64,000 nt of DNA from Escherichia coli. Its GTDB lineage: Bacteria; Pseudomonadota; Gammaproteobacteria; Enterobacterales; Enterobacteriaceae. The stretch lies in the NCBI RefSeq assembly GCF_024298765.1, contig NZ_CP101210.1; one strand, given 5' to 3'. Made by a program: the position numbers. Shown in pieces: positions 53,801-56,800 of this stretch. Numbering within the stretch: the first letter of the stretch is position 1; every line of letters starts with the position of its first letter.

Positions 53801-56800
53801 CAGCACCACGGATTTACGTCAGGGGCGTGTGCGTATTCGCTACAAATATACGCCTGTTCCGCCACTGGAAGACATGGAGCTTTACCAGACGTTTACTGAT
53901 GAATACTTTGAACCTGCATTTGCGGTGCTGGGAGGTGCCTGATGGCTGTGCCAAAACATCTTCGCTTTTTTACGCTGTTTGTGGATGGTGAAAACGAAGT
54001 GGGTAAGGTGACGTCCGTCACTCTGCCTAAGCTGACGCGCAAAACCGACAGCTACCGGGGGGGTGGCATGATGGGTGCGGTAAGTATTGATCTCGGTCTG
54101 GACGACTCCGCGCTTGATGCGAGCTTTGTCATGGGGGGCGCAGTTCGTGAGCTGTTCCTGAAGTATGGCGGCACGATTGACGGCACGCTACTGCGTTTTG
54201 CGGGTGAATACTACACCGATGCAGAAAGCGACCTGTATGAAGTCGAAATGCGCGGACGTGTGACGGAAATTGATATGGGGGAAGCCAAACAGGGCGAAGC
54301 CACATCACACACTTACGCCATTAAAAACACCTACTACAAGCTGAGTGTTAACGATCGCCCGTTGTGGGAGATTGATCTGCTGAACTTCATTTACCGGAAG
54401 GACGGCAAGGACATTGTGCCCGATCGCATCCGTTCCGCGCTTGGGCTTGGCTGATAAGTAATATGCAGGCGGCGCAGTGCGTCGCCTCTGACTGAAAGGA
54501 GTTTCCTGATGAAAGAGACGAAAAACATCGATACCGAAAACACGGTAGTTACTGACACTGTGAAAGAAACCAGTGAGCGTGGCGTAAAACTTACCCAACC
54601 AATTGAGCGAGGCGGCGAAAAAATCACGTATGTGGATATCACCGGGGCTATTGAGCAGGCTGGATCTCTGCGAGATTTGTCGCTGTCTGATGTGCTGAAT
54701 CTGAAAGCGGAATCCATGTTTACGCTGCTGTCACGCGTGACATCACCGCGACTGGATGAAGTGACGATCAAAAAAATGGCATCCCGTGACTTTATTCAGT
54801 TATGTGTGGTTGCCGTAAATTTTTTGAGCGGTGCGGACTCTGGCGGGAAGAACGAACAGGCGACGGAAGCCTGATCACGGTTGTGTGCTTTGAGCACATA
54901 GAAGACTTTGTGGCGGATATTGCCGCCATTTTTAACTGGTCGCCCGCCGAAATCTTCATGATGACGCCCGGCGAAGTGGTTAGCTGGCGTGAGCGGGCGG
55001 CACTTCGCAGCGGGAATGCAGACAATGAAGACTCTTGATATCCGGGTCGCTTTCAGCGCCGTTGACAGGCTGACCCGGCCTGCCGAAAACGCCCGCCGCC
55101 TGATGGGGCAGTTTGGTGACTCCATCCAGCGAACGCAGGGGGCGATCAAAAATCTCGAGCGTCAGGCGCGTTCATTTGAGCGCGCCCGTGACGCTGTCAG
55201 TAAAGCGGATGCTGGCATCGTGAAAGCACGACGCCAGCTTAACGCCCTTAATCAGTTACAACGCACGGGTACAGTGCTCAGCGAAAAACAACAAAAGCTG
55301 ATGCAGCAGTTAAGCACCCGGCTTGAACGCCTGAATGAATCGCGCACACGGGAAATTCAGAAAATGCGGGAGCTTGGCGGAGAGCTGAAACGCCACGGCA
55401 TTTCCCTGACAGGCAGCGATAACACCATCCAGCAGGCCATCAGACGCACCGAACAGTACAACAACCAGCTTGAACGCGAACGGCAGGCGCTTGCGCGTGT
55501 AACGCGGGCGCGTGAGCGGTATTCGCGCGCGCAGGAAACAGCGGGAAAACTGAAAACAGGTGGTGCGCTGGCAATTGGTGCGGCAGCGGCGGGCGGCTAT
55601 GCTGCCGGGCGTTTTTTGCAGCCTGCGATCGGGTTCGGCAAAGAGATGTCCCGCGTTCAGGCACTGACGCGAATCGACCAGAACAGCCCGCAGTTTAAGG
55701 CGCTGCGTGAGCAGGCGTTAAAACTTGGCTCTGAAACGCAGTTCACCGCAGGCGATGCCGCCAGTGGACAGGCATTTCTTGCAATGGCTGGCTTCACTCC
55801 GCAGGCCATTCAGGCTGCGCTTCCCGGCGTGCTGAGCATGGCAACGGCTGGCGGTATGGATCTCGGCGAGACGGCAGATATTGGCTCAAATATCCTGACG
55901 CAGTTCGGCCTTTCTGCTGACCAGATGGACCGGGTCGGTGACACACTCACCGCAGCGTTTACCCGTACCAACACTGACCTTCGCGCACTGGGCGAAACCA
56001 TGAAATATGCAGGTCCGGTGGCGGGTAAGCTGGGAATATCGCTGGAGCAGGCCGCAGCGATGGCTGGCGTGCTGGCGAATATGGGCATCAGAGGGAGTGA
56101 TGCCGGGACGGCAATGCGTGCCAGCCTGGCTCGTCTGGCATCACCGCCAAAGGCGGCGGCAGAAGCTCTGAAAGAGCTGGGCGTGTCCGTCTCGGATGCC
56201 GGGGGCAAAATGCGCCCGATGGAGGATGTGCTGGCCGACCTTTATAAAGCCACCCGCAAATACGGGGAAGTTGACCGGGTATCGTTCTTTAAGGACATTG
56301 CCGGAGAAGAGGCTTTCACATCGTTTATGGCGCTCGTTGATGCAGCGGGTGACGGTTCCTTACCCAAACTGAGAAAAGAACTTGAAGGCGCGCGCGGTGA
56401 GGCTGAACGCACAGCAAAGGTTATGGCCAACAACCTTGACGGCGATCTGAAATCACTCGGCAGTGCATGGGAAGGGTTGCGCATCCGCATTGCAGATCTG
56501 ATTGACGGTCCGCTGCGTTCTGTCACGCAGTGGCTCGCGCGGGTGGTATCAAGGGTGACGGCGCTGGCGCAGGCCCATCCGGCACTGACGCGCCAGCTAC
56601 TGATAGCAGGCGGTGCGTTGCTGGCAATGACTGCAACGGTTGGCTCGTTGTCGCTGGCTATTGGTGTGCTTGCTGGTCCGCTGGCAAAACTGCGTCTTGG
56701 TTTTTCTCTCCTGACCGGATCAATGAATGCTGTCAGGGTCCTGCCAGCACTATGGGGAATGGTGACGGGTTCCGTTTCTTTACTGGGAGGCGCTATCGGG

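What the first reader, a model, noticed from the sequence alone, without database searches (positions are those of the whole stretch)
54802..55038. Conserved programmed -1 frameshift (TTTTTTG) between tail chaperone gpE and E'
The heptamer at 54820..54826 lies exactly in the overlap of the E frame and the -1 frame ORF, predicting an E+E' fusion analogous to lambda G/GT. Its intactness contrasts with the inverted block and the gpI frameshift, so the prophage tail module is not uniformly decayed.
Basis: partly seen in the sequence, partly recalled or inferred. Interest (0 to 1): 0.3.

Follow-up and report, generated by a model that had tools for sequence, protein, structure and literature searches.

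The report
P2-type tail chaperone frameshift site
This is the well-known programmed -1 ribosomal frameshift that P2-like phages use to make two versions of a tail-assembly chaperone, sitting intact in a P88-like prophage of E. coli; it is real but ordinary.

Summary
TTTTTTG lies at 54820..54826, in phase (T_TTT_TTG) with the 121-codon gene E (54509..54874). The -1 frame then stays open for 70 codons to 55038. That frame encodes a Pfam GpE (PF06528) domain, and its end overlaps the start of the tape-measure gene.

The locus belongs to a P88-like (Xuanwuvirus, Peduoviridae) prophage. Heptamer, phase and gene order match the annotated P2 E/E+E' site. The predicted 176-aa fusion aligns with P2 E+E' across the junction (E = 4e-25).

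An in-phase X_XXY_YYZ heptamer is present in the overlap of all 13 reference phages analysed and all 80 IMG/VR relatives. Substitutions switch from 0-frame-synonymous to -1-frame-synonymous at the site.

One refinement: the site is really a 10-mer, A_AAT_TTT_TTG (54817..54826). The sister clade, and one P88-type variant, read AAATTTTATG. So A_AAT_TTT is the invariant heptamer in this genus, and T_TTT_TTG may be secondary.

No downstream RNA structure is supported. GenBank and RefSeq annotate E' as a separate 51-aa ORF, which is probably wrong.

At 1-3% divergence from P88, intactness of the site here says little by itself.

Interest is low.

The parts
54509..54874 (+). Gene E: tail assembly chaperone, 121 aa, read in the zero frame
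   Evidence: ORF. PHROG 103 'tail protein', 6e-35. Pfam PF10109 Phage_TAC_7 only 16.5 bits, below the cut-off of 25. Homology to P2 gpE by BLASTP and alignment A1. RefSeq annotates 'tail protein' at these coordinates.
54817..54826 (+). Slippery 10-mer A_AAT_TTT_TTG, made of two overlapping in-phase heptamers: A_AAT_TTT at 54817..54823 and T_TTT_TTG at 54820..54826
   Evidence: Phase check. T_TTT_TTG is identical to the annotated P2 site. A_AAT_TTT is invariant in 20 distinct Xuanwuvirus-type sequences from 37 loci, while TTG alternates with ATG.
54826..55038 (+). E' segment in the -1 frame: 70 codons plus stop. It is read after the slip and gives a 176-aa E+E' fusion.
   Evidence: Open frame. 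PF06528 Phage_P2_GpE, 2.6e-12. PHROG 1756, 2e-38. Aligns with P2 E'.
54790..54874 (+). The 85-nt zone where the -1 frame is already open and E has not yet ended; the part downstream of the slip site is dual-coding
   Evidence: Between the slip site and the E stop, summed pairwise synonymous:non-synonymous counts are 379:722 in the zero frame and 605:397 in the -1 frame. Upstream of the site they are 1049:350 and 195:1204.
54883..55038 (+). Database annotation of E' as a standalone 51-aa ORF starting at a GTG; probably an annotation artefact
   Evidence: RefSeq 'GpE family phage tail protein'. P88 GenBank 'tail fiber protein'.
55025..57832 (+). Tape measure gene T; its ATG overlaps the end of E' by 14 nt, as in P2 (8 nt)
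   Evidence: PF10145, 3.6e-58. RefSeq start. P2 layout.
53942..54454 (+). Tail tube gene (FII-like), immediately upstream of E
   Evidence: PF04985, 7.5e-47.
52758..53942 (+). Tail sheath gene (FI-like), first gene of the operon
   Evidence: PF04984, PF22671 and PF17482.
57839..58333 (+). gpU-like tail gene, last gene of the block
   Evidence: PF06995, 5.5e-39.

Best explanation
Most ribosomes translating gene E of this P88-like prophage terminate at 54872-74 and make the 121-aa chaperone E. A minority slip back one nucleotide on the run A_AAT_TTT_TTG (54817..54826). They continue in the -1 frame to 55038 and make a 176-aa fusion, E+E'.

The fusion shares the E body, which by analogy with lambda G/GT binds the tape measure. 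It adds a GpE domain, presumed to recruit the tube or tail initiator.

The slip can occur with Asn/Phe tRNAs on A_AAT_TTT, giving the junction ...VNFFER.... It can also occur with Phe/Leu tRNAs on T_TTT_TTG, giving ...VNFLER.... Lineage conservation points to A_AAT_TTT as sufficient, and the P2 precedent shows that T_TTT_TTG works in E. coli. No RNA stimulator appears to be involved.

Shown here: the sequence anatomy, the homology, the conservation of the signal, and the switch of coding constraint at the site. Inferred: that the fusion is actually made, its ratio to E, and the roles of the two domains.
For: - Heptamer phase and the open -1 frame.
- Position between the tube and tape-measure genes.
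- E' matches PF06528.
- P2 carries the same heptamer in the same phase, with an annotated -1 frameshift. The P2 frameshift is reported as producing a 91-aa E and a 142-aa E+E' at TTTTTTG (PMC3091744, citing Christie 2002 and Xu 2004). My reconstruction of the P2 fusion gives 142 aa.
- BLASTP of the fusion against P2 E+E' gives E = 4e-25, with the junction residues FL aligned to FL.
- In alignment A1, all 12 fusions match PF06528 and 11 of 12 match PF10109.
- In-phase heptamers of varied sequence (TTTTTTG, AAATTTT, CCCTTTC, TTTTTTT, TTTTTTA, GGGAAAG) are present in every relative examined.
- Phase bias is 95:2:3 inside the overlap and 11:65:85 outside it.
- Synonymous/non-synonymous counts switch frame at the slip site, 19 codons before the annotated GTG.
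- The overlap DNA is identical in the plaque-forming phage P88 (PMC5285337).
- In E. coli, UUN A-site codons are reported as shift-prone, and the R_RR.U_UU.Y class, which includes A_AAU_UUU, is singled out as efficient (PMC4066793).
Against: - There is no direct protein evidence for this phage genus.
- The Pfam match of the E part is below threshold for this particular protein (16.5 against 25 bits), and NCBIfam gives nothing.
- Databases annotate E' as an independent ORF from GTG 54883, and that GTG is conserved in the sister clade.
- The conservation counts come from related sequences and are not phylogenetically independent.
- This particular prophage carries a broken gpI. The signal may never be used productively in this strain.
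Confidence: 0.9

Rival explanations
1. E' is made only as a free-standing 51-aa protein initiated at GTG 54883, as the databases annotate it, and the heptamer is incidental.
For: RefSeq and GenBank annotate it this way. The GTG is present in both Xuanwuvirus clades.
Against: - The -1 frame shows protein-type conservation from the slip site onward, 19 codons upstream of that GTG: 605 synonymous to 397 non-synonymous, against 379:722 in the zero frame.
- There is no ATG, GTG or TTG in the -1 frame between the slip site and 54883 (reading).
- I see no Shine-Dalgarno-like sequence upstream of 54883 (inspection).
- The annotated 'starts' of E' differ from phage to phage. P2 has none and is annotated as a frameshift.
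- All 80 IMG/VR relatives keep an in-phase heptamer.
Confidence: 0.04
2. The fusion arises by transcriptional slippage of RNA polymerase on the T6 run, not by ribosomal slippage.
For: The window has a run of six T at 54820..54825. Homopolymer runs can cause RNA polymerase slippage (general knowledge, reviewed in PMC5009743).
Against: Close and distant relatives keep the frameshift architecture with only T4 (AAATTTTATG), T3 (CCCTTTC) or GGGAAAG. These runs are too short for polymerase slippage but are canonical ribosomal X_XXY_YYZ sites. The strict codon phase of the motif (95:2:3) is expected for ribosomal slippage and not for transcriptional slippage.
Confidence: 0.03
3. The heptamer and the open -1 frame are a chance coincidence or an evolutionary relic, and no fusion is made.
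For: A single in-phase heptamer in a 28-codon zone is expected about 10% of the time. Identity to P88 is high enough that intactness here is uninformative.
Against: The motif pattern is conserved while its sequence changes, across genera with 31-50% protein identity. There is also the phase bias, the -1-frame coding constraint, and the reported experimental precedent in P2 (PMC3091744).
Confidence: 0.02

Closest known systems
Bacteriophage P2 E / E+E' programmed -1 frameshift in the FETUD tail operon (Christie et al. 2002, as cited in PMC3091744)
   Same: - Same virus family (Peduoviridae).
- Same gene position, between the tube gene (FII) and the tape-measure gene (T).
- Same heptamer, T_TTT_TTG, in the same phase at the aligned Phe-Leu codons.
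- E' of the same Pfam family.
- The end of E' overlaps the start of T.
- No downstream RNA structure (PMC3091744).
   Different: - E is 121 aa against 91 aa, with an N-terminal extension, and identity is only 31%.
- The overlap zone is 85 nt against 37 nt.
- The fusion carries a 10-residue insertion after the junction.
- An extra overlapping heptamer, A_AAT_TTT, is the one kept throughout the genus.
- The sheath-to-U block is transcribed opposite to D and ogr.
- No experimental demonstration exists for this genus in the literature I could search.
Phage lambda G / GT tail assembly chaperone frameshift (Levin, Hendrix and Casjens 1993; Xu, Hendrix and Duda 2004, 2013, 2014, as summarised in PMC5009743)
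   Same: [quoted passage not shown] The logic of a fixed ratio is the same; 30:1 is reported for lambda.
   Different: - No sequence similarity was sought or shown here.
- Lambda is a siphovirus, and this tail is contractile.
- Lambda's slip site differs (G_GGA_AAG, from my own memory and not checked here).
- The domain roles assigned to E and E' are by analogy only.
E. coli dnaX and IS3/IS911-type -1 frameshift signals
   Same: X_XXY_YYZ tandem tRNA slippage in E. coli (PMC4066793).
   Different: Those signals depend on an upstream Shine-Dalgarno-like element and/or a downstream hairpin or pseudoknot. Here no downstream structure is supported: mean z is about 0 over 52 relatives, and the window itself gives z of about +1. 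I see no Shine-Dalgarno-like sequence upstream.

Membership tests
P2-type E/E+E' tail chaperone -1 frameshift | Two overlapping ORFs between the major tail tube gene and the tape-measure gene | tested here: met
   Tube 53942..54454, E 54509..54874, E' to 55038, T from 55025.
P2-type E/E+E' tail chaperone -1 frameshift | The second ORF lies in the -1 frame relative to the first and is open across the end of the first | tested here: met
   The -1 frame is open 54790..55038, with an 85-nt overlap.
P2-type E/E+E' tail chaperone -1 frameshift | An in-phase X_XXY_YYZ slippery heptamer inside the overlap (TTTTTTG in P2) | tested here: met
   T_TTT_TTG at 54820..54826 and A_AAT_TTT at 54817..54823, both in phase. 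The P2 site is identical.
P2-type E/E+E' tail chaperone -1 frameshift | The upstream product is homologous to gpE (Pfam PF10109 Phage_TAC_7) | tested here: inconclusive
   The Pfam score is 16.5 bits, below the curated cut-off of 25, and NCBIfam gives no hit. Homology is nevertheless supported by BLASTP to P2 E+E' (4e-25, covering the E part), by PHROG 103 (6e-35), and by alignment A1, in which 11 of 12 members pass PF10109 at E <= 0.01.
P2-type E/E+E' tail chaperone -1 frameshift | The downstream segment is homologous to the P2 GpE domain (Pfam PF06528) | tested here: met
   46.5 bits against a cut-off of 23, E = 2.6e-12.
P2-type E/E+E' tail chaperone -1 frameshift | The frameshift architecture is conserved in relatives | tested here: met
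   All 13 reference phages analysed and 80 of 80 IMG/VR loci. Phase bias. Switch of coding constraint.
P2-type E/E+E' tail chaperone -1 frameshift | The fusion protein is actually produced, and both products are needed for tail assembly | not testable with these tools
   This needs protein detection and genetics. Only the P2 precedent is available (PMC3091744).
Stimulator-dependent bacterial -1 frameshift signals (dnaX, IS3 family) | A stable hairpin or pseudoknot 5-9 nt downstream of the heptamer | tested here: not met
   The nearest hairpins begin about 30 nt and about 55 nt downstream, and the first is not kept in the sister clade. The z-score of the region spanning the site is -0.18. Over 52 relatives the mean z is -0.05 for 45 nt and +0.14 for 70 nt.
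Stimulator-dependent bacterial -1 frameshift signals (dnaX, IS3 family) | A Shine-Dalgarno-like element about 10 nt upstream of the heptamer | tested here: not met
   The upstream sequence TTATGTGTGGTTGCCGTA contains no GGAG or AGGA (inspection).

The most novel reading that the evidence does not exclude
In the P88 genus (Xuanwuvirus) the working slip site is A_AAU_UUU rather than the P2 heptamer. The overlapping U_UUU_UUG, present in the P88 clade but replaced by AUG in the sister clade and in one P88-type variant, acts as a second tandem site that raises or tunes the E:E+E' ratio. The natural TTG/ATG polymorphism would then be a simple evolutionary dial on frameshift efficiency.
Probability: 0.3. 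Interest if true: 0.25.

Novelty: new member of a known kind. Interest (0 to 1): 0.1.

Why it matters
Scientifically it matters little. It is one more instance of the most widely conserved recoding event in tailed phages.

Practically, it shows that GenBank and RefSeq records for P88-like phages and prophages carry a spurious standalone 'GpE family' or 'tail fiber' ORF and lack the E+E' fusion. This homologous region was found in 1373 of 5426 complete E. coli genomes, though I inspected the annotation of only a few records.

It also gives a clean natural series of slip-site variants at one homologous position: TTTTTTG, AAATTTT, the two combined, CCCTTTC, and CCCTTTT combined with TTTTTTG. That series could be used to compare heptamer efficiencies in their native context.

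Tried and rejected
- NCBIfam scan of E, E' and the fusion: no hits.
- Profile search of the fusion alignment against PDB sequences: nothing meaningful, best hit RctB at E = 0.44. I did not try to assign a fold to E or E'.
- The primary P2 paper (Christie 2002, PMC135442) is not held in the library. The P2 facts are therefore cited through PMC3091744 and the P2 RefSeq annotation.
- Search for a downstream stimulatory RNA: rejected.
- Other in-phase heptamers in the window whose -1 frame runs past the stop. The A7 run at 851..857 is just an ordinary response-regulator and sensor-kinase gene overlap. Those inside 57159..57627 lie in spurious ORFs within the tape-measure gene. I did not examine the rest.
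- The ATG at 54802 as an independent E' start: rejected. It is not conserved, and in some relatives the -1 frame opens only at the heptamer.

Full report
**What is there.** The sequence at 54810..54829 reads ttgccgtaaa ttttttgagc, so TTTTTTG occupies 54820..54826. Gene E runs from 54509 to 54874 and encodes 121 aa. Relative to its ATG, codons AAT (54818-20), TTT (54821-23) and TTG (54824-26) are in the zero frame, so the heptamer is in the canonical phase, T_TTT_TTG. The -1 frame is open from 54790 to the TGA at 55036-38. A slip gives a 176-aa fusion.

**What the locus is.** The 701 bases around the site are 99.9% identical to many E. coli chromosomes, and homologous sequence is found in 1373 of 5426 complete genomes. 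They are 98.9-99.3% identical to phages P88 and 500465-2 of the genus Xuanwuvirus, family Peduoviridae. P88 positions 21801-35187 map to window 64000-48942. Pfam identifies, in order:
- sheath, 52758..53942;
- tube, 53942..54454;
- tape measure, 55025..57832;
- gpU, 57839..58333;
- gpD, on the opposite strand;
- a serine invertase.

E' matches PF06528 (Phage_P2_GpE) at 46.5 bits against a cut-off of 23. E itself scores only 16.5 bits against the 25-bit cut-off of PF10109, but it hits PHROG 103 at 6e-35.

**Comparison with P2.** The P2 RefSeq record annotates E, a joined E+E' CDS and a 'site of -1 translational frameshift'. The P2 sequence shows GGT TTT TTG TCG, which is the same heptamer, the same phase and the same Phe-Leu-Ser codons. 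My reconstruction of the P2 fusion gives 142 aa, the published size (PMC3091744). BLASTP of the window fusion against P2 E+E' gives 31% identity over 150 residues with E = 4e-25, and the alignment runs straight through the junction. In both phages the tape-measure ATG overlaps the end of E'.

**More than chance?** In this window, in-phase XXXYYYZ heptamers occur at 0.0036 per codon in ORFs of at least 100 aa, so about 0.1 is expected in the 28-codon overlap. A single instance is therefore weak evidence. The strength comes from relatives.
- I analysed 13 reference phages from 12 genera or unclassified lineages, with 31-86% identity of the fusion. Every one has an in-phase heptamer in the E/E' overlap: TTTTTTG, AAATTTT, CCCTTTC, TTTTTTT or GGGAAAG.
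- A scan of IMG/VR returned 80 loci with 51 distinct overlap sequences, and all 80 have one. The counts are TTTTTTG 25, AAATTTT 18, AAATTTT with TTTTTTG 14, CCCTTTC 12, CCCTTTT with TTTTTTG 9, TTTTTTA 1, and TTTTTTT with TTTTTTG 1.
- Inside the overlap the motif falls in the correct phase 95 times, against 2 and 3 for the other phases. Upstream in E the correct phase is depleted, at 11 against 65 and 85.

These sequences are related, so the counts are descriptive and not probabilities.

**Is the -1 frame translated from the slip site?** I compared 20 distinct Xuanwuvirus-type sequences by summed pairwise differences, counting synonymous:non-synonymous changes in each frame.

| Region | Zero frame | -1 frame |
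|---|---|---|
| 60 nt before the site | 1049:350 | 195:1204 |
| Slip site to E stop | 379:722 | 605:397 |
| After GTG 54883 | 210:976 | 785:401 |

The -1 frame thus behaves as coding from the slip site onward, 19 codons before the GTG at 54883 that RefSeq and GenBank use as the start of a standalone 51-aa 'GpE family' or 'tail fiber' protein. There is no ATG, GTG or TTG in the -1 frame between the site and 54883. The database annotation is therefore most likely an artefact of gene callers that do not model slippage.

**A refinement of the site.** The codon before the heptamer is AAT, preceded by A, so A_AAT_TTT (54817..54823) is a second in-phase heptamer overlapping the first. In the sister Xuanwuvirus clade (P88_4B11 and Citrobacter phage Shae_phiSM, 86% DNA identity) the sequence is GTA AAT TTT ATG. 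One T-to-A change removes T_TTT_TTG and leaves A_AAT_TTT as the only slippery heptamer in the overlap. One IMG/VR locus with a P88-type context carries the same ATG. GTA AAT TTT is invariant in all 20 distinct sequences, while the flanking synonymous positions vary.

A systematic E. coli study found three relevant things (PMC4066793). UUN A-site codons are shift-prone. All-pyrimidine codons (UUU, UUC) shift better than UUA or UUG. The R_RR.U_UU.Y class, to which A_AAU_UUU belongs, is efficient. So A_AAT_TTT is probably sufficient in this genus. T_TTT_TTG, which works in P2, may add to it. The two routes differ by one residue at the junction, NFFER against NFLER.

**Stimulators.** The 100 nt after the site fold with z = -1.96, but the hairpins start about 30 nt and about 55 nt downstream. 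The first of these is disrupted in the sister clade. A 121-nt stretch spanning the site has z = -0.18. Over 52 distinct relatives the mean z of the first 45 and 70 downstream nucleotides is -0.05 and +0.14, and the window itself scores about +1. I see no Shine-Dalgarno-like sequence upstream. This agrees with the reported absence of structure in P2 and the Burkholderia P2-like phages (PMC3091744). Transcriptional slippage is unlikely as the conserved mechanism, because relatives have only T4 or T3 runs and the motif is strictly phased.

- The gpI frameshift is real. Relative to P88 one A is missing (GGGAAC to GGGAC) at about 63444. This splits gpI into 63404..63805 and 63243..63470 on the minus strand, and both pieces match PF09684.
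- The 'inverted block' is not decay. The sheath-to-U block faces away from D and ogr in the plaque-forming phage P88 itself (PMC5285337).
- The tail-fibre segment 59007..62112 is flipped relative to the P88 record. It is bounded by 65-nt inverted repeats and lies next to the invertase gene.
- The prophage differs from P88 by only 1-3%. An unchanged 7-10 nt site is what neutrality predicts, so its intactness in this strain is not evidence of selection here.

**Verdict.** The mechanism is the known P2/lambda-type tail chaperone frameshift, in a genus where it is not annotated. The only new detail is the overlapping A_AAT_TTT heptamer and the natural TTG/ATG polymorphism. Interest is low.

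Noticed in passing
window 49660..51490 (ORF 49897..51360, + strand): A 1.8-kb AT-rich insertion (33-39% GC) sits between the prophage ogr and D genes. It is absent from phage P88 and from the GB089 prophage, and it occurs in only 20 of 5426 complete E. coli genomes.

Its single 487-aa ORF has no Pfam, PHROGs or PADLOC hit. It has 57 unnamed homologue clusters in Enterobacterales and Pseudomonas.

Invariant residues D185, E199 and K201 lie on adjacent strands and resemble a PD-(D/E)xK nuclease motif. This is my reading and is unverified.

A 47%-identical Klebsiella homologue sits at a prophage end directly after an AbiH gene. The ORF is a possible anti-phage cargo gene of unknown type.
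   Followed up: partly
window 54883..55038: RefSeq (PGAP) and the P88 GenBank record annotate E' as a standalone 51-aa protein, named 'GpE family phage tail protein' or 'tail fiber protein', instead of a frameshift fusion with E. The same treatment appears in several other Peduoviridae records.
   Followed up: yes
window ~63444 (gpI, 63243..63805, minus strand): A one-base deletion relative to P88 (GGGAAC to GGGAC) splits baseplate gene I into ORFs of 133 aa and 75 aa, both matching PF09684. It is either a genuine inactivating mutation or a sequencing error. If real, the prophage probably cannot build tails.
   Followed up: yes
window 59007..62112, with the invertase at 58369..58974 (minus strand): This is an invertible tail-fibre segment, similar in kind to the Mu G segment. 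It is flipped relative to the P88 record and bounded by 65-nt inverted repeats (59007-59071 and 62048-62112, 78% complementary). It carries alternative fibre C-termini and two pairs of fibre-assembly genes.
   Followed up: partly
window 51491..58333 and P88 record L015 27600..34433: In this genus the sheath-tube-E-T-U block is transcribed away from D and ogr, unlike the co-linear FETUD operon of P2. This is the native layout of a viable phage, not a rearrangement in this strain.
   Followed up: yes
IMG/VR loci L016-L095, E genes upstream of the overlap: In-phase X_XXY_YYZ heptamers are about six-fold rarer than out-of-phase ones in the body of E (11 against 65 and 85). This suggests selection against accidental slippery sites upstream of the programmed one. 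The counts are not corrected for relatedness.
   Followed up: no
about 25-40 nt downstream of the slip site in L005, L006, L008 and L051-L093 (window equivalent 54855..54870): A near-identical nucleotide block, GGCGGAGACGGAGAGCGA, is kept across lineages whose E proteins are only about 45-50% identical. It encodes GGDGE in the -1 frame and AETE in the zero frame. It probably reflects dual-coding constraint, and an RNA role was not tested.
   Followed up: no
window 47745..48047: A tRNA-Gly(GCC), tRNA-Cys(GCA), tRNA-Leu(UAA) cluster lies downstream of a pgsA-like ORF, about 0.9 kb from where similarity to P88 ends (48942). The same prophage type sits next to raiA and bamD in strain GB089, so the two strains differ in integration site. 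I did not map the attachment site.
   Followed up: no
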